From Bacilli bacterium (GTDB lineage: Bacteria > Bacillota_I > Bacilli_A > ML615J-28 > CAG-698): a stretch of 63,758 nt of DNA. Made by a program: the position numbers and the translations under genes. Where the stretch lies: positions 5,599 to 69,356 of the forward strand of contig DAOSSK010000001.1 in NCBI GenBank assembly GCA_035377365.1, given 5' to 3'. Under the pieces are notes generated by a model. That model did no database searches and was not told the origin of the DNA. It worked only from the letters and a program-made list of their open reading frames with translations. Shown one piece after another: positions 56,283 through 62,236 of the stretch (positions are counted from its first letter, which is position 1; every line of letters starts with the position of its first letter).

Positions 56283-57087
56283 CTTCTATCATAACTACTC
56301 TAGGAATTAAGTTTAAATCTAAATAAACTTTAGTTTTAGCTCCTAAATACTTTCTAACATATTCTGTTACTTTAGTTTCTTGATTTATTCCTATTTCAAA
56401 AAAAACTAAATACTTATCATTTAGATATCTATTAATTTCTTTCAAAATTGTTTTGTAATAATAAAGACCATCCTCTTCAGCTATTAAAGCACCTTTTGGT
56501 TCTTTCAAAACATATTCACTTAATAAATCCTCTTTTCTAATATAAGGAGGATTAGAAATAATAATATCATATTTATTATTCACATTACTAAACAAATCGC
56601 TTTGGATAAAGTTGATATCTACTTTATGATATTTTGCATTTTTCTTAGCTAATTCTAAAGCACTATCACTTATATCTACTGCCTCAATTATAGCCTTAGG
56701 TAATAATTTTTTCAAGGTAATTGCAAGATTCCCTGAACCAGTACCAATATCTAAAATTCGGTATTCTTGCCCTTTATCTAAATGCTCTAAAACAGCTTCA
56801 ATTAAAATCTCACTGTCAAAACGAGGAATTAAAACAGCAGGACTTACAAAAAATTTGTATCCATAAAAGTAAGTAAACCCTAATAAATACTGAACGGGCA
56901 TACCTTGTAAGTATTCACTAATTAGGGTTTCTGTTTTTTTTAGATGCAAAACTTGATTATTGTAATTAAGAATTAAGTCTTGTTTAGAAAGTCCGTTAAC
57001 TTCTAAAACAATTAATTCAATTGCTGTTCGTTCTTGATCTTTATTTAATTGATTTGTATATTTTTTAAATAATTCTTGATAAGTCAT
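56257..57087 (-). CDS. prmC: Peptide chain release factor N5-glutamine methyltransferase
   Basis: SAM motif LDIGTGSGN and catalytic NPPY. It lies directly after prfA (TAATG overlap). Confidence 0.9.
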   Translation of the reverse strand: MTYQELFKKYTNQLNKDQERTAIELIVLEVNGLSKQDLILNYNNQVLHLKKTETLISEYLQGMPVQYLLGFTYFYGYKFFVSPAVLIPRFDSEILIEAVLEHLDKGQEYRILDIGTGSGNLAITLKKLLPKAIIEAVDISDSALELAKKNAKYHKVDINFIQSDLFSNVNNKYDIIISNPPYIRKEDLLSEYVLKEPKGALIAEEDGLYYYKTILKEINRYLNDKYLVFFEIGINQETKVTEYVRKYLGAKTKVYLDLNLIPRVVMIEGDKSENNI

Positions 57088-58154
57088 TATATTTCTTTTT
57101 TTGATAATTGGGCTCTTTGATTTTCCATAATTAAAGCCTCAATAATCGGATCTAATTTTCCATTCATTACACGATCTAATTGTTGGATGGTGAAGTTAAT
57201 TCTATGATCAGTTACTCTATTTTGGGGATAGTTATAAGTCCTAATTTTCTCAGAACGATCACCAGTACCAACTTTCGCTAATCTTTCCTTTCCAACTTGT
57301 TGTTCTTGTTCTTGAAGAGCATGTTCATATAATCTTGCAGCTAAAAGTTTAAAAGCTGTAGCTTTATTTTCATGTTGGCTTCTACCATCTTGACATTGAA
57401 CAACAATTCCTGATGGTATATGTGTCAAACGAATAGCTGATTCTGTTTTATTTACATGTTGTCCGCCGGCTCCACCTGAACGATAAGTATCAATTCTAAC
57501 ATCATTTACATCTAAGTTAACTTCAACTTCATCAACTTCAGGCATAACTAAAACAGTCGCAGTTGATGTATGAATTCTTCCGCTTGCTTCTGTTTCTGGA
57601 ACTCTTTGAACACGATGGGCACCAGATTCATATTTTAGAAATGAATAAACACTATCTCCAGTAATTATAAATTCAATTTTAGAAAATCCACCTACATCTG
57701 AAGGTTCAGAGTTAATAACTTCAATTGTCCAACCCTTTTCCTCTGCATATTTAGAATACATTCTAAATAAATCACCAGCAAAAATATTAGCTTCATCTCC
57801 ACCTGCAGCTCCTCTAATCTCACAAATGATGTTTTTATCATCTTGAGGATCACGAGGAATAAGCATTAATTTTAACTCTTCTTCCAATTTTAAGATTTCT
57901 TCTTTAACACCTTCAATCTCTAACTTAGCAAGTTCTGCTATTTCAAGATCATGGCCAGTAATTAAACTTTCTAAAGATTTTTCTTCTTCTAGTAAAGATT
58001 TATAACTTCTTGATTTAGTTACAATAGGTTCTAATCTTTTTTGTTCTTTACTTAATTCTTTTACCTTTTTAAGATCCATTGCGATTTCTGGTTGCATTAA
58101 TAAATTGCATATCTCTTCGTAACGGTCTTCAATAATTTGCAACCTCTCAAGCAT
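57087..58154 (-). CDS. prfA: Peptide chain release factor 1
   Basis: 355 aa with the GGQ motif (SGGAGGQHVNKT) and RF1-type layout. There is no internal frameshift site. Confidence 0.97.
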   Translation of the reverse strand: MLERLQIIEDRYEEICNLLMQPEIAMDLKKVKELSKEQKRLEPIVTKSRSYKSLLEEEKSLESLITGHDLEIAELAKLEIEGVKEEILKLEEELKLMLIPRDPQDDKNIICEIRGAAGGDEANIFAGDLFRMYSKYAEEKGWTIEVINSEPSDVGGFSKIEFIITGDSVYSFLKYESGAHRVQRVPETEASGRIHTSTATVLVMPEVDEVEVNLDVNDVRIDTYRSGGAGGQHVNKTESAIRLTHIPSGIVVQCQDGRSQHENKATAFKLLAARLYEHALQEQEQQVGKERLAKVGTGDRSEKIRTYNYPQNRVTDHRINFTIQQLDRVMNGKLDPIIEALIMENQRAQLSKKEI

Positions 58155-59482
58155 TATCTTTGTTCCTTCTCTTGTGTGAATTTTAAGATATGTTTGAAGA
58201 ATGTAATATCCATAATACCAGTTCTACCATGTCTATTCTTTTCAACTTTTAATTTTAAGTTAGCAGTCTTTTGATTTCTTTCTTCATCTTCTTTATTACT
58301 ATAAATAAACATAACAACGTCAGCATCTTGCTCGATACTACCTGATTCTCTTAATTGAGCTAGGTTTGGCTCTCCATCAGGCTTAGCTGCTGTTCTATTT
58401 AATTGCGATAAAGCGATAATGGGAATATCAAGTTCCATAGCAAGTACTTTTAAAGATCTTGAAATAGCACCAACAATTTCCGCTCTTGTTGAAGAACGTC
58501 GAGGACTATCTAAATCTATTAATTGTAAATAGTCAACAACAATCATATCTAATTTACCATTTCTTTTTAAACTACGGCATTGAGCCATAATATCAAAAAT
58601 ATTAGCACTATTGCTATCATCTAAATATAAATTAAATTTATCAATTGTTTGTGATTTAGCTGTTAGAATACTAGAAATCTCTGTAGCTGATAATTGACCT
58701 TTGTTAATTTTATCATGATCAACTGCTGATTCAGTACTAATCAATCTCTTTACAATTTGTTCTTTACCCATTTCAAGGGAAATAAAAGCTACATATTTTC
58801 CTTGTTTACATGCTGCTGAAGCAAAGTTTAAAGCTAATGCAGTTTTACCAACGCCTGGACGAGCAGCTAAAATGATTAATTCTTGTTTTTTGAAACCAGA
58901 TAAAATATTATTTAATTCTTTAAATCCTGTATCAATACCAATCAAATCATTTTTGTTTTGCATTCTTTTGTTTATCTCATCAATAACTCCAGGAGTAATA
59001 GAATCTACTTTTGTAAGTTGATTAACTGATCTTTTGTTTAGAACGTTCTTAACTAATCTTTCTGTATTATTTAAAATATCATCTGTTTGAAAACGACCTG
59101 ATAAAATATCATTTGAAAGATTTGATAGTGTATGATAAAGCTCTCTTTGCAATGCTTTTTCTTTAATGTTAGCTGCATAAGTATCCCAACGAACATATGT
59201 TGGTAGGATATCAATCAGATAACCAATATACTCAATTCCCCCAGATGCTTCAAATTTCTTTTCCCTTTTTAACTCTTCAATTACATTTGTGTAGTTAATC
59301 TCTTGGTGGTTTTGATATAATTTTTCCATTGCTTCCATAATATTCTTATGACGTTGGTCATAGAAATGTTCTGAATGAACACTATTTACAATAGCTGAAG
59401 CTTCTTGAGGATTAATTAAAGCCGAAGCTAAAATATATTGTTCTGATTCGATACTATATGGTAATTGTCTTAGTTCTTCCAT
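58154..59482 (-). CDS. dnaB: Replicative DNA helicase (DnaB family; DnaC in Bacillus nomenclature)
   Basis: 442 aa starting LPYSIESEQYILASAL, with Walker A ARPGVGKT and Walker B MIVVDYLQL. It lies downstream of rplI, as in Bacillus. Confidence 0.95.
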   Translation of the reverse strand: MEELRQLPYSIESEQYILASALINPQEASAIVNSVHSEHFYDQRHKNIMEAMEKLYQNHQEINYTNVIEELKREKKFEASGGIEYIGYLIDILPTYVRWDTYAANIKEKALQRELYHTLSNLSNDILSGRFQTDDILNNTERLVKNVLNKRSVNQLTKVDSITPGVIDEINKRMQNKNDLIGIDTGFKELNNILSGFKKQELIILAARPGVGKTALALNFASAACKQGKYVAFISLEMGKEQIVKRLISTESAVDHDKINKGQLSATEISSILTAKSQTIDKFNLYLDDSNSANIFDIMAQCRSLKRNGKLDMIVVDYLQLIDLDSPRRSSTRAEIVGAISRSLKVLAMELDIPIIALSQLNRTAAKPDGEPNLAQLRESGSIEQDADVVMFIYSNKEDEERNQKTANLKLKVEKNRHGRTGIMDITFFKHILKFTQEKEQR

Positions 59483-59484
59483 AA

Positions 59485-59928
59485 TTATTCCTTTCCAACA
59501 ACATAAATTGTTAATCTAGCTTTAATATCAGGATGAAGATCAACCAAAACTACAAATGTACCTAAAGCTTGAATTTCATCTTTAATAATCTTTTTACGAT
59601 CTAAAGTAATATCATATTGTGCCTTATATTCGTCTACTATCATTTTACTACTTACTGAGCCGAAAATTTTTCCTTCTTTTCCTACTTTAACGCCAATTGT
59701 AACTGGGTTTGCTTCAATTTTGTCACGTAGATCTTTCATTTCATTTTCTTTACTTAAAGCTAAACGTTTCTCTTTTTCTTTTTCTTTTTCTAATTCTTTG
59801 ATATTATCAACTGATGCAATAATGGCTTGTCCACTTCGAATTAAGAAGTTACCATATCCACTCTTTACATCGATAATATCGCCTTTTTTACCTTTTCCTT
59901 TAACTTCAGTTGTAAGTATAATTCGCAT
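59485..59928 (-). CDS. rplI: 50S ribosomal protein L9 (predicted internal initiation within the gdpP frame)
   Basis: 147 aa, MRIILTTEVKGKGKKGDIIDVKSGYGNFLI..., full-length L9. A GGAGGAG SD lies 6 nt upstream of the ATG at 59928. Confidence 0.85.
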   Translation of the reverse strand: MRIILTTEVKGKGKKGDIIDVKSGYGNFLIRSGQAIIASVDNIKELEKEKEKEKRLALSKENEMKDLRDKIEANPVTIGVKVGKEGKIFGSVSSKMIVDEYKAQYDITLDRKKIIKDEIQALGTFVVLVDLHPDIKARLTIYVVGKE

Positions 59929-61923
59929 TGAATCTCCTCCTCTCTCTTCTGAAATATCAATTTCTTTTATAAGCATATCTTTTGCTTCTTCTAAATCTAC
60001 AGCTCTTAGTTGAGTTGCGGCATTGTTATAATGACCACCACCACCTAAAGCTTCCATAATTAATTGAACGTTAGTTTCGTCTAAACTACGAGCACTAATA
60101 CCAATTTCATTTTCTGATATTATGCCAACACAAAACGAAGCTTTAATGCCTTTGATTTCTAAAACATCATCAGCTACTTTAGCTAAAAACTGTCTTGGAT
60201 TGACTCCTTCTGTAACAGTAGCAATTCCATATTTTTCTTTATAAATTATAAGATTAGATAAAACATCAATTCTCTTTTCATATTTATCATAATCTTCACG
60301 TAAATACTTTTTCGCTAGTTGTAATTCTCCACCATAAGTTTGTAATCTAGATAAAACATTAAATGTTCTGTAACTTGCACGATACATTAAATCATTTGTA
60401 TCTACTAAAATTCCCATAATCATCCATGTAGCTTCAGCACTACTTACAATAGGATCTTTATCTAAAAACTCATACATCTCTACAAGCAACTCTACACTTG
60501 AAGACGCAGATGAAGTTTGATAAATATAATCGTATTTATCTACCAAAAACTTACCAGGACGATGATGATCTATAACAGCTACATGTTTAGCTTTTTTATA
60601 AAGTTTTGGTTCCATTAAAATCTTTTGATTTTGAACGTCAACAATTATTAATAAATCGCTGTTTTTTATTTCTCTAATTGCCTTTTTAGTTCCTATTAAA
60701 TAATCTAAAGTCGCAGTATGTTCTCTTTGAATAATAGAATATAAATATTGAATGGTTTGATCTACTCTATCTAAATCAAAAACAATCTTAGCTTCTTTAT
60801 TATAAGCAGCAGCTATTTTTTGAACAGCAATTGCCGCTCCAAAAGCATCAGCATCAGCGTCTATATGTGTCATAACATAAATTTTTTGAGCTTTATTAAT
60901 TAATGAAACTAACTCTTCAGCTTTAGTTCTTACATAAACAGGAGATCTACTTTCAAATGAAGCAGTCTTTCCGCCAAAGTAAGACGTCTCTCCATATTTA
61001 TTTAAAACACATTGGTTTCCACCGCGATTTAATGCTAAGTTTAATTGAGCTTCAGCTAATGCAAATAACTCAACATAACCTAAATCAGCATTATCAGCAA
61101 CAGCAATTCCAATTGATGCACTTGATCTAATATCTTCTTTTAAACAATATGACTTAACATCATCAATTACCTTAAATTCATCTTTCACAACTTCTGCTAA
61201 TTGCTTTTCGTTTAATAAAATTAAATATTGATTGTCTGTATATCCTTTTAAGTAGATATCAAACTTACTGCACCAATCACTTAAGATACCAATAATATTA
61301 CTCATTTGCGAAGATCTCTCTTGAGCATCAAAGCCAGATAAAGCTTCACTTAAATTATCTAAGTTGATAATACCAGCAGCTAGTGTATGGTCTGCATATT
61401 TTTGTGTCAAATTATGGAATTCAGTTACGTCAGTTAAATAAACAATATTTTCTTCCATCAAAACTTCACATTCAAAAATTGAACCATAAAGTGATATTTC
61501 AAACTTATCTTCATTTGATAAATTGTAATATAAATCAGCACTAATGTTTTCAATTCTAACATCAACTAAAGGACTTAAAAAGATTTCCTTAGCATAAGCA
61601 TTGGCCCACTGAATTGTTTTATTTTTATCATAAACAATAATAGCAATAGGTAGTTTATTAAAGGCAGTTTCTCCACCTTTTTTAACACGGTAAGAAATTG
61701 AGTTCCATAACTCATACCTTTGTTCTAACCATTGCATTTTCCTAAACTTCTTATTCCCAACATTCAAAACAAAAACTGTCGTAAATGATGCTGCTACTAT
61801 CACCAAAGCAGCATAAGTTAGCCATTCGTTTATTTCCCCAAAAACAGCTGTGAAAACTAAAACGAAACATGAAGCTAAGAAAAGCACTAATGATATTATT
61901 CTATAAACTAATGTATTCCTCAT
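59485..61923 (-). CDS. gdpP: Uninterrupted 812-codon ORF: GdpP-type c-di-AMP phosphodiesterase (aa 1-665) in frame with complete ribosomal protein L9 (aa 666-812)
   Basis: Two N-terminal TM helices, a PAS/degenerate-GGDEF-sized linker, DHH motifs (THIDADADAFG, IDHHRPG) and DHHA1 GGGGH. The frame then reads ...ISEERGGDS-MRIILTTEVKGKGKKGD... with no stop; I checked this by manual translation of 59926-60000. Confidence 0.8.
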   Translation of the reverse strand: MRNTLVYRIISLVLFLASCFVLVFTAVFGEINEWLTYAALVIVAASFTTVFVLNVGNKKFRKMQWLEQRYELWNSISYRVKKGGETAFNKLPIAIIVYDKNKTIQWANAYAKEIFLSPLVDVRIENISADLYYNLSNEDKFEISLYGSIFECEVLMEENIVYLTDVTEFHNLTQKYADHTLAAGIINLDNLSEALSGFDAQERSSQMSNIIGILSDWCSKFDIYLKGYTDNQYLILLNEKQLAEVVKDEFKVIDDVKSYCLKEDIRSSASIGIAVADNADLGYVELFALAEAQLNLALNRGGNQCVLNKYGETSYFGGKTASFESRSPVYVRTKAEELVSLINKAQKIYVMTHIDADADAFGAAIAVQKIAAAYNKEAKIVFDLDRVDQTIQYLYSIIQREHTATLDYLIGTKKAIREIKNSDLLIIVDVQNQKILMEPKLYKKAKHVAVIDHHRPGKFLVDKYDYIYQTSSASSSVELLVEMYEFLDKDPIVSSAEATWMIMGILVDTNDLMYRASYRTFNVLSRLQTYGGELQLAKKYLREDYDKYEKRIDVLSNLIIYKEKYGIATVTEGVNPRQFLAKVADDVLEIKGIKASFCVGIISENEIGISARSLDETNVQLIMEALGGGGHYNNAATQLRAVDLEEAKDMLIKEIDISEERGGDSMRIILTTEVKGKGKKGDIIDVKSGYGNFLIRSGQAIIASVDNIKELEKEKEKEKRLALSKENEMKDLRDKIEANPVTIGVKVGKEGKIFGSVSSKMIVDEYKAQYDITLDRKKIIKDEIQALGTFVVLVDLHPDIKARLTIYVVGKE

Positions 61924-61995
61924 AAAATCACCATCTTAACTATTTTAGTATACCATATTTATAGGAAAAAATAAACTCTTTATCATAAAAACAAA

Positions 61996-62021
61996 GAAAA
62001 AAGAGTAGCATAAACTACTCT
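61996..62021 (-). terminator. Intrinsic terminator/attenuator after rpsR
   Basis: AGAGUAG / CUACUCU forms a 7-bp stem with a 6-nt loop, followed by a U-run. It overlaps the rpsR stop (TAG). Confidence 0.6.
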
Positions 62022-62236
62022 TTCACAAATGGTAACAATGCCATATGACGTGCTCTTTTTATTGCAACAGCTAATTGTCTTTGATAGATAGCTTTTGTAC
62101 CTGTTGATCTTCTTGGTTTAATTTTACCGCGATCAGTAACGAATCTTCTTAATAATTCGTAATCAGTCCAATCAATCTTTTCAATTTTATTATCTGTAAA
62201 GTAGCAACTTTTTCTTCTTCTTGGTCTAAATGCCAT
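62015..62236 (-). CDS. rpsR: 30S ribosomal protein S18
   Basis: 73 aa with the CYFT...[19 protein letters not shown]...TGT.A..QR pattern. Confidence 0.95.

What the first reader, a model, noticed from the sequence alone, without database searches (positions are those of the whole stretch)
59485..61923. GdpP (c-di-AMP phosphodiesterase) and ribosomal protein L9 share one uninterrupted 812-codon frame that retains the L9 SD+ATG
I translated the minus strand across 59926-60000 by hand. It reads ...VDLEEAKDMLIKEIDISEERGGDS-MRIILTTEVKGKGKKGD... with no stop codon. Residues 1-665 have the full GdpP architecture: two TM helices, a PAS/degenerate-GGDEF-sized region, DHH motifs HIDADADAFG and IDHHRPG, and DHHA1 GGGGH. 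Residues 666-812 are a complete L9. The junction codons GAG AGA GGA GGA GAT TCA ATG contain GGAGGAG 6 nt before the L9 ATG, so the normal rplI initiation signal is kept while a gdpP stop is absent. In B. subtilis, gdpP (yybT), rplI and the replicative helicase are adjacent but separate genes. The layout predicts two products: free L9 from internal initiation, and a membrane-anchored GdpP-L9 fusion. The fusion could place c-di-AMP hydrolysis on ribosomes or tether a ribosome subpopulation to the membrane.
Basis: partly seen in the sequence, partly recalled or inferred. Interest (0 to 1): 0.7.

Follow-up and report, generated by a model that had tools for sequence, protein, structure and literature searches.

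The report
GdpP–ribosomal protein L9 fused gene
A c-di-AMP-degrading membrane enzyme (GdpP) and ribosomal protein L9 really are written as one gene here, a fusion already catalogued in Acholeplasma and phytoplasma relatives, and comparison of about 50 related genomes indicates it makes both free L9 (from a conserved internal start) and a fused GdpP-L9 protein that selection maintains.

Summary
Window 59485-61923 (-) is one 812-codon frame: GdpP (PAS, degenerate GGDEF, DHH, DHHA1; codons 1-665) runs without a stop into a complete bL9 (codons 666-812), and GGAGGAG sits 5 nt before the L9 ATG.

It is not an assembly error. Identical or near-identical proteins occur in dozens of independent assemblies. 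About 48 clusters at 50% identity, and 41 species-level loci whose DNA I read, carry the same fusion.

It is not new as an architecture. NCBIfam NF011110/PRK14538 ([quoted passage not shown]) models it, and a Candidatus Phytoplasma oryzae protein carries that name. I found no paper that studies it.

- **Internal start is conserved.** All 41 start-bearing loci keep ATG or GTG and a Shine-Dalgarno as strong as that of free-standing rplI genes (-10.0 versus -10.6 kcal/mol; background -2.2), although the linker peptide varies.
- **Loss of the start goes with a second L9 gene.** Five groups of fused loci that lost the start and SD each have a separate canonical rplI immediately downstream.
- **The fused domain is selected.** In those loci the fused L9-like domain stays open and under purifying selection (dN/dS 0.08).

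Most likely the gene makes two products and the fusion itself is selected. What the fused L9 domain does is unknown. Ribosome tethering is untested and somewhat disfavoured.

The parts
59485..61923 (-). Single 812-codon ORF (stop TAA at 59487-59485) encoding GdpP fused in frame to ribosomal protein bL9
   Evidence: ORF; six Pfam domains; NF011110 end-to-end match, 626 bits, below the 707-bit cutoff; full-length homologues in many assemblies
59929..61923 (-). GdpP portion (codons 1-665). Two N-terminal TM helices (about 61756-61914). PAS_GdpP 61426-61686, degenerate GGDEF 60985-61368, DHH 60409-60885, DHHA1 59962-60222. Its own start has only a weak SD.
   Evidence: Pfam. (catalytic residues H353, D357, D359, D429, D452-H453-H454-R455, D508, G628-G629-G630-H631 invariant in 45 sequences). 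(AF2 model; catalytic domain matches the S. aureus GdpP structure 5XSI, E 6e-35, 34% id). (SD of the gdpP start -7.3 kcal/mol).
59934..59940 (-). Shine-Dalgarno GGAGGAG embedded in linker codons (AGA GGA GGA G..), 5 nt upstream of the L9 ATG
   Evidence: sequence; duplex energy with the 16S 3' tail is -16.5 kcal/mol, the second strongest of 8 starts in this region; an equivalent SD is present in all fused loci measured (40, 41), at 4-10 nt spacing and in all three codon registers.
59926..59928 (-). Internal ATG (Met666), the inferred start codon of free bL9
   Evidence: Met in all 112 full-length sequences printed from the 120 closest homologues; Met or Val in the more distant start-bearing fusions; the two Val cases for which DNA was read (L032, L097) are GTG and have an SD; where this codon is not a start, a separate rplI is present.
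59485..59928 (-). bL9 coding part (147 aa plus stop). L9_N 59791-59928, L9_C 59497-59742.
   Evidence: L9_N 53.4 bits, L9_C 74.6 bits. (TIGR00158 101 bits, cutoff 58.6). (AF2 model matches L9 structure 1DIV, 43% id, TM 0.73). (no other L9-like sequence in the 63.7-kb window).
61999..62024 (-). Terminator-like hairpin after rpsR, separating rpsF-ssb-rpsR from the gdpP-rplI-dnaB-prfA-prmC unit
   Evidence: pattern scan only. The same scan gave no strong promoter-like site just upstream of the L9 start, so L9 would be translated from the gdpP mRNA.
58154..59482 (-). dnaB (replicative helicase). It starts 2 nt after the L9 stop, and its SD lies in the last L9 codons. This is the conserved downstream neighbour.
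   Evidence: The same order is seen in related loci.

Best explanation
One gene, two proteins.

**Origin.** In the ancestor of an Acholeplasma/phytoplasma/Izimaplasma-type clade, the stop codon of gdpP was lost. In relatives that stop lies 0-96 nt before the rplI start or 23 nt inside rplI, and the rplI Shine-Dalgarno is encoded in the acidic/glycine tail of GdpP. One point mutation or one 1-nt indel is enough to merge the frames.

**Products.**
1. Ribosomes that start at the weak gdpP start make a low-abundance, membrane-anchored c-di-AMP phosphodiesterase carrying a C-terminal L9 module.
2. Ribosomes that start at the strong internal SD+ATG make the free 147-aa bL9 that goes into 50S subunits.

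**Selection.** Both outputs are maintained by selection. The internal start is kept because this is the rplI gene. The open junction is kept because the L9 module has acquired a role as part of GdpP.

**Shown versus inferred.**
- Shown: the sequence, its conservation, the link between losing the start and having a second rplI, and purifying selection on the fused domain.
- Inferred: that both proteins are actually made, and their relative amounts.
- Unknown: what the L9 module does on GdpP. My best guess is a structural or regulatory C-terminal domain rather than canonical docking on 23S rRNA.
For: 1. **The fusion is real and old.** About 48 of the best 150 representatives at 50% identity are fused, down to 29% identity. 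Of the loci whose DNA I read, 41 are start-bearing fusions: 40 from species genomes plus L097. The fused GdpPs form one clade, sister to Haloplasma, where the genes are separate.

2. **The internal start is conserved at the nucleotide level.**
- The junction codon is ATG in 39 loci and GTG in 2.
- Mean SD duplex energy is -10.0 kcal/mol, and every locus is at or below -5.7. The 777 other in-frame ATGs in the same ORFs average -2.2 (Mann-Whitney p = 3e-26). Free-standing rplI starts in outgroups average -10.6 (n = 38).
- 38 of 41 seven-residue linker peptides are distinct, yet the SD persists at 4-10 nt spacing in all three codon registers.

3. **A natural experiment.**
- Five groups of fused loci have a non-start junction codon and background-level SD (-1.6 to -3.2): L047/L098, L090, L093, L094/L095 and L096.
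- Every one of them has a separate canonical rplI with an SD (-6.7 to -10.2) immediately downstream.
- None of the 41 start-bearing loci has a second L9 within 2.5 kb.

4. **The start-less fused L9 domain is not decaying.** It remains a full-length open frame. Between L047 and L098 its dN/dS is 0.078 (pN 0.107, pS 0.647), against 0.058 for the GdpP part and 0.13 for the free rplI.

5. **The junction stays open despite easy routes to a stop.** The 12 codons before the start offer on average about 8 single-nucleotide routes to a stop, and the spacer varies from 33 to 39 residues through in-frame indels only.

6. **The origin is simple.** Haloplasma has ...AAGGAGGAAGGTAAGA ATG... with gdpP one frame off. 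A Clostridium sp. MAG (L061) has ...GGGAGGAAGAC TAA ATG.

7. **In the window, the internal SD is far stronger than gdpP's own.** The values are -16.5 and -7.3 kcal/mol.
Against: - There is no protein-level or ribosome-profiling evidence. Everything here is comparative sequence inference.
- The loci are phylogenetically related, so the statistics overstate independence.
- The duplication may be a single ancient event. The free L9 copies cluster together in a neighbour-joining tree, which would make the 5/5 link between start loss and a second rplI fewer independent trials.
- dS between L047 and L098 is near saturation.
- One start-less, SD-less fusion (L091/L092) has no adjacent rplI. I could not check the rest of that genome.
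- I could check only the 63.7-kb window, not the whole genome, for a second rplI.
- The AF2 model leaves only about 4 residues between the last GdpP helix and L9 strand 1. The geometry of the fused protein, and whether it folds with both parts functional, is uncertain (pTM 0.38).
Confidence: 0.65

Rival explanations
1. Assembly or sequencing artefact: a stop codon or 1-nt indel at the junction was missed, and gdpP and rplI are really separate genes as in Bacillus.
For: None found. Single MAG contigs can carry indel errors in principle.
Against: Proteins 97-100% identical and 812 aa long come from independent NCBI, JGI, ENA and Logan assemblies. The species-representative genome agrees. Forty further species-level loci, at 32-58% identity in their best segment, have the same open junction.
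Confidence: 0.01
2. Neutral read-through fusion. The stop was lost by chance, free L9 is made from the internal start, and the L9 tail on GdpP is tolerated baggage with no function of its own.
For: The fusion is one mutation away from the ancestral layout. The SD+ATG conservation is explained by the need for free L9 alone. No function is known for the tail.
Against: - No regained stop and no frameshift in 41 species-level loci and about 48 clusters at 50% identity, despite about 8 one-step routes to a stop per linker and repeated in-frame indels.
- After rplI duplication the fused copy was kept as a full-length ORF, with dN/dS 0.08.
Confidence: 0.17
3. Obligate fusion. There is no internal initiation, and the only L9 in the cell is the C-terminal domain of the membrane protein, used as such on ribosomes or released by proteolysis.
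For: The ORF is continuous. L091/L092 has a fusion with no start, no SD and no adjacent rplI. bL9 is dispensable in some Mollicutes (PMC4014445).
Against: - The junction ATG/GTG and an rplI-strength SD are conserved independently of the linker peptide.
- Where they are lost, a free rplI is present in 5 of 6 locus groups.
- From general knowledge: ribosomal proteins are needed in far larger amounts than a two-TM signalling enzyme, and gdpP's own SD is weak.
Confidence: 0.05
4. Ribosome-tethering fusion. The fused L9 module docks on 50S subunits in place of free L9, which brings c-di-AMP hydrolysis to ribosomes or anchors a ribosome subpopulation at the membrane.
For: - In start-bearing fusions the L9 module has fully canonical L9 sequence (Pfam 53 and 75 bits, TIGR00158 101 bits), so it could in principle bind 23S rRNA.
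- gdpP-rplI linkage is conserved across Firmicutes.
- From my own knowledge, not checked here: GdpP is inhibited by ppGpp, a signal linked to the ribosome.
Against: - When a separate rplI exists, the fused copy loses the conserved N-domain motifs. L9_N drops to between no match and 35 bits, against 53-63 bits in the free copies. The fused copy stays under purifying selection and keeps more of the C-domain. The selected role therefore does not require canonical rRNA docking.
- The linker is only about 4 residues, which may clash sterically on the 50S subunit. This was not testable here.
Confidence: 0.12

Closest known systems
NCBIfam NF011110 / CDD PRK14538, 'putative bifunctional signaling protein/50S ribosomal protein L9' (phytoplasma type)
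   Same: Same end-to-end architecture: TM, PAS, degenerate GGDEF, DHH, DHHA1, L9_N, L9_C. The window protein aligns to model positions 54-834 of 838 (E 1e-187). The phytoplasma member P0150 also keeps Met at the junction.
   Different: The window protein scores 626 bits, below the curated equivalog cutoff of 707. It belongs to a sister lineage (Acholeplasmataceae MAG), not the phytoplasma group the model was trained on. The database name says nothing about internal initiation.
Canonical GdpP (YybT) of Bacillus subtilis and Staphylococcus aureus, with the gdpP-rplI-dnaB/dnaC operon
   Same: Same domain set and catalytic motifs, and the same gene order. The catalytic domain model matches S. aureus GdpP 5XSI. 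gdpP-rplI co-transcription is documented in Streptococcus pyogenes (PMC3711813), and the shared operon is noted in a Bacillus thuringiensis paper (PMC4568413).
   Different: In those organisms gdpP ends with a stop before or inside rplI, which gives two ORFs. Here there is one ORF.
Bacterial genes that yield two proteins by in-frame internal initiation (IF2 alpha/beta from infB, ClpB 93/79, CheA long/short). Recalled from general knowledge, not tested here.
   Same: An internal SD plus ATG/GTG inside a longer ORF produces a shorter protein identical to the C-terminal part of the long one.
   Different: In those cases the short form is an isoform of the same functional protein. Here the short form is a universal ribosomal protein unrelated in function to the N-terminal enzyme, and the arrangement arose by fusion of two neighbouring genes.
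Eukaryotic ubiquitin-ribosomal protein fusion genes (UBA52/eL40, RPS27A/eS31). Recalled from general knowledge.
   Same: A ribosomal protein is encoded at the C-terminal end of a fusion ORF with an unrelated module.
   Different: In those genes the ribosomal protein is released by proteolytic cleavage, not by internal initiation, and ubiquitin acts as a transient chaperone. No cleavage signal is evident here.

Membership tests
GdpP-type c-di-AMP phosphodiesterase | Domain order: two TM helices, PAS_GdpP, degenerate GGDEF_GdpP, DHH, DHHA1 | tested here: met
   PF21370 56 bits, PF24898 83 bits, PF01368 60 bits, PF02272 41 bits, all above gathering scores; two N-terminal helices.
GdpP-type c-di-AMP phosphodiesterase | Intact DHH/DHHA1 catalytic motifs (DxD, D, DHH, D, GGGH) | tested here: met
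   HIDADADAFG, IDHHRPG, GGGGH; these residues are invariant in 45 fused homologues; fold match to 5XSI.
GdpP-type c-di-AMP phosphodiesterase | Hydrolysis of c-di-AMP to pApA | not testable with these tools
   Needs an enzyme assay.
Ribosomal protein bL9 | L9 N-terminal (rRNA-binding) and C-terminal domains joined by a long helix, about 147 aa | tested here: met
   L9_N 53.4 bits, L9_C 74.6 bits. TIGR00158 101.4 bits (cutoff 58.6); long helix 705-738; matches 1DIV and ribosome-bound L9 chains.
Ribosomal protein bL9 | Incorporated into the 50S subunit | not testable with these tools
   Inferred only. It is the sole L9-coding sequence in the window and in the 2.5 kb either side of it in 41 related loci.
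NCBIfam NF011110 (PRK14538) bifunctional signaling protein/L9 | Full-length match above the curated equivalog cutoff (707 bits) | tested here: not met
   626 bits, model positions 54-834 of 838. The phytoplasma protein P0150 scores 1114 bits. The architecture is the same, but the sequence lies outside the strict equivalog.
NCBIfam NF011110 (PRK14538) bifunctional signaling protein/L9 | GdpP and L9 in one uninterrupted ORF | tested here: met
Two-product genes with in-frame internal initiation | Conserved internal SD at functional spacing plus a start codon (ATG/GTG/TTG) | tested here: met
   41 of 41 loci. Energy equals that of bona fide rplI starts. GTG substitutions in L032 and L097.
Two-product genes with in-frame internal initiation | Both protein species detected | not testable with these tools
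   Needs western blot, N-terminomics or initiation-site ribosome profiling.

The most novel reading that the evidence does not exclude
The L9 fold has been recruited as a genuine C-terminal domain of GdpP, with a role distinct from being a ribosomal protein. On this reading, the near-universal gdpP-rplI adjacency in Firmicutes reflects a physical or regulatory link between c-di-AMP turnover and L9 or the translation apparatus. The fused and duplicated Acholeplasma-type lineages expose that link and make it testable.
Probability: 0.25. Interest if true: 0.7.

Novelty: already known. Interest (0 to 1): 0.38.

Why it matters
As an architecture this is catalogued, so the bare finding is not a discovery. 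NCBIfam/CDD have a model for it, phytoplasma proteins are named 'bifunctional signaling protein/50S ribosomal protein L9', and proteins 97-100% identical to this one are already in public assemblies, the closest named one (99%) being called '50S ribosomal protein L9'.

What remains of interest is that nobody appears to have asked how the gene works. Eight full-text searches found no paper that describes or studies the fusion.

The comparative evidence gathered here gives a clear, testable picture:
- a universal ribosomal protein is expressed from an internal start inside a signalling-enzyme gene;
- the fused form is itself kept by selection, even after a separate rplI appears.

This offers a handle on a minor open question: why gdpP and rplI are neighbours across Firmicutes, and whether c-di-AMP degradation is linked to the ribosome.

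It also matters for annotation. These 810-aa proteins are routinely named only '50S ribosomal protein L9', which hides the organism's GdpP.

Tried and rejected
- **Artefact or missed stop.** Rejected: many independent assemblies and 40 further species agree.
- **Alternative genetic code.** Irrelevant: no stop of any type lies at the junction, and relatives end the fused ORF with TGA, TAA or TAG.
- **Internal promoter for rplI.** The consensus scan shows no strong promoter-like site upstream of the L9 start and no excess over shuffles. This is uninformative, so it is not used as evidence.
- **SD-like purine run as a by-product of a conserved Glu/Gly linker peptide.** Rejected: 38 of 41 linker peptides differ, and the SD occupies all three codon registers.
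- **Start-less fused L9 copies as decaying pseudogene tails.** Rejected: dN/dS is 0.08 and the frames are open at full length.
- **Literature.** Eight searches found only statements that gdpP and rplI share an operon, and nothing on the fusion.
- **DNA for the phytoplasma-type protein P0150.** Not on record, so the SD in phytoplasmas was not checked.
- **Apparent same-frame bias among separate gdpP/rplI pairs.** Discounted as a likely ranking bias of tblastn, since high-scoring segments can run through one stop.
- **Neighbour-joining trees.** Too weakly resolved to count duplication events, so I do not claim five independent events.
- **AF2 model.** pTM 0.38, too uncertain in inter-domain geometry to judge ribosome compatibility.
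Full report
**1. Observation**

On the minus strand, window 61923..59485 is one ORF of 812 codons. The junction reads ...KEIDISEERGGDS-MRIILTTEVKGKGKKGD... with no stop.

Pfam finds six domains, all above gathering thresholds:
- PAS_GdpP, residues 80-166
- GGDEF_GdpP, 186-313
- DHH, 347-505
- DHHA1, 568-654
- Ribosomal_L9_N, 666-711
- Ribosomal_L9_C, 728-809

TIGR00158 (bL9) scores 101 bits against a cutoff of 58.6.

The local gene order on the minus strand is rpsF-ssb-rpsR, then a terminator-like hairpin, then gdpP::rplI-dnaB-prfA-prmC.

**2. Not an artefact**

The window is 99% identical to contig DUNF01000054.1 of an Acholeplasmataceae MAG. Proteins of 812 aa at 97-100% identity were predicted independently from NCBI, JGI, ENA and Logan assemblies on many contigs, some longer than 1 Mb. 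All 120 best homologues carry the GdpP domains. All but two short fragments also carry both L9 domains, and the full-length ones are 806-819 aa, down to 47% identity.

**3. Already catalogued**

NCBIfam NF011110 (PRK14538, [quoted passage not shown]) matches end to end at E = 1e-187. The score of 626 bits is below the curated cutoff of 707. A representative, P0150, scores 1114 bits. It is RAM57992.1, named "bifunctional signaling protein/50S ribosomal protein L9" in Candidatus Phytoplasma oryzae.

Most other members are annotated only as "50S ribosomal protein L9". Eight full-text searches found statements that gdpP and rplI share an operon (PMC4568413, PMC3711813). None found a study of the fusion.

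**4. Distribution and origin**

A profile-guided scan of one genome per species returned 80 loci. My frame-and-stop check gave:
- **Fused:** 40 loci, labelled Acholeplasmataceae, Acholeplasma sp., Mollicutes, Izimaplasma or 'Bacilli' MAGs, at 32-99% identity in their best segment.
- **Separate:**
  - Haloplasma, where gdpP's TGA lies 23 nt inside rplI in another frame.
  - Clostridia, with gaps of 0-96 nt.

An exhaustive search of 1.84 billion representatives found about 48 fused clusters at 50% identity, down to 29% identity. Below them come ordinary GdpPs of about 650 aa. In neighbour-joining trees of the GdpP part, the fused forms make one clade sister to Haloplasma.

The outgroup junctions show how easily the fusion arises. 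The rplI SD is encoded in GdpP's C-terminal tail:
- Haloplasma: AAGGAGGAAGGTAAGA ATG
- Clostridium sp. MAG (L061): GGGAGGAAGAC TAA ATG

One indel or one point mutation would fuse the frames.

**5. The internal start is conserved as a start**

- **Start codon.** Among 41 fused loci with DNA, the junction codon is ATG in 39 and GTG in 2 (L032, L097). More distant fused proteins show only Met or Val at that position, unless they belong to the start-less group described in section 6.
- **SD strength.** The predicted duplex with the 16S 3' tail averages -10.0 kcal/mol, and every locus is at or below -5.7. The 777 other in-frame ATGs in the same ORFs average -2.2 (p = 3e-26). The 38 free-standing rplI starts in outgroups average -10.6.
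- **Selection acts on RNA, not peptide.** 38 of 41 seven-residue linker peptides are different. The SD sits 4-10 nt upstream and occurs in all three codon registers.
- **In the window.** The internal SD (-16.5) is much stronger than gdpP's own (-7.3).

**6. A natural experiment**

Six fused representatives lack a start codon at the junction. For five of them, a separate canonical rplI with its own SD (-6.7 to -10.2) lies immediately downstream, followed by dnaB where the contig extends far enough. These are L047/L098, L090, L093, L094/L095 and L096. Their junction SD has decayed to background (-1.6 to -3.2).

None of the 41 start-bearing loci has a second L9 within 2.5 kb.

Pfam scores for the L9 parts:

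| L9 copy | L9_N (bits) | L9_C (bits) |
|---|---|---|
| Start-less fused copies | no match to 35 | 17-51 |
| Free paralogues | 53-63 | 49-85 |
| Window's fused L9 | 53 | 75 |

The start-less copies have lost the K-G-x-G-K-K-G and G-Y-A-N-F-L motifs of the N-domain. They nevertheless remain full-length open frames. Between L047 and L098 the fused L9-like domain has dN/dS 0.078, against 0.058 for the GdpP part and 0.13 for the free rplI.

So the fused module is kept by selection even when it is no longer needed to encode ribosomal L9.

In the start-bearing lineages the junction has never regained a stop or shifted frame. This holds despite about 8 one-step routes to a stop per 12-codon linker, and spacer lengths of 33-39 residues.

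**7. Structure**

The AF2 model has mean pLDDT 80 and pTM 0.38. The individual domains are confident. The catalytic part matches S. aureus GdpP (5XSI, E 6e-35), and the tail matches L9 (1DIV, TM 0.73). Only about 4 residues separate the last GdpP helix (644-660) from L9 strand 1 (665-669). Inter-domain geometry is unreliable, and I could not test whether an N-terminally extended L9 fits on the 50S subunit.

**8. Interpretation**

The best explanation is one gene with two products (confidence about 0.65):
- abundant free bL9 from the internal SD+ATG;
- a low-abundance membrane GdpP carrying an L9 module that has a selected, still unknown role.

The ribosome-tethering idea is untested and is weakened by the decay of the rRNA-binding N-domain motifs in lineages with a separate rplI.

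The rivals are:
- **Artefact:** about 0.01.
- **Obligate fusion without internal initiation:** about 0.05.
- **Neutral read-through:** about 0.17.
- **Ribosome tethering as the selected role:** about 0.12.

**9. Caveats**

- There are no protein-level data.
- The loci are related, and the duplication may be a single ancient event.
- dS is near saturation.
- One start-less fusion, L091/L092, has no adjacent rplI and is unexplained.
- Only the window, not the whole genome, was checked for a second rplI.

**10. Verdict**

The feature is real, conserved and already catalogued. It is interesting mainly as an unstudied and now well-posed case of internal initiation combined with domain co-option. 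Interest is 0.38.

Noticed in passing
L047 2495-5465; L098 1434-4403; L090 116-2907; L093 2501-5412; L094 1311-4312; L096 1-2718: These fused GdpP-L9 genes have lost the junction start codon and SD, and their L9 part has diverged. Each is followed immediately by a separate canonical rplI. The fused L9-like domain is under purifying selection (dN/dS 0.08 between L047 and L098).
   Followed up: yes
L091 2501-4960 and L092 2036-4495: A fused GdpP-L9 with no start codon and no SD at the junction, and no free rplI next to it (rpsF-ssb-rpsR-fusion-dnaB-murJ). Neighbouring genes do have strong SDs. Either rplI lies elsewhere in that genome, or free L9 is not made.
   Followed up: partly
L052-L055, L067 (Haloplasma) and L002 (Acidaminococcaceae MAG): gdpP and rplI overlap by exactly 23 nt in different frames, with gdpP's TGA inside rplI and the rplI SD encoded in the GdpP tail. 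The same layout appears in two distant groups. A 1-nt indel would produce the fusion.
   Followed up: partly
window 57087-59487: Very tight packing downstream of the fusion. The dnaB ATG (59482) lies 2 nt after the L9 stop, with its SD in the last L9 codons. dnaB/prfA (58154) and prfA/prmC (57087) each share one base. This suggests translational coupling along gdpP::rplI-dnaB-prfA-prmC.
   Followed up: no
window 61999-62024 and 61930-61990: A terminator-like hairpin follows rpsR. An A+T-rich stretch containing TGGTATACT (an extended -10-like sequence) lies ahead of gdpP. The fusion gene may therefore start its own transcription unit, separate from rpsF-ssb-rpsR.
   Followed up: no
L014, L018, L025 (labelled Bacteroidales), L047 (Acidiphilium), L027 (Coprobacillus), L041 (Clostridium sp. 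CAG:307): Contigs carrying the Acholeplasma-type fused gene bear taxonomic labels from unrelated groups. This is probably MAG mis-binning or outdated names, so record titles are unreliable for judging the taxonomic range of the fusion.
   Followed up: no
P0124 (877 aa), P0139 (853 aa), P0150 (841 aa): Some fused family members are 30-65 residues longer than the usual ~810 aa. Where the extra residues lie was not examined.
   Followed up: no
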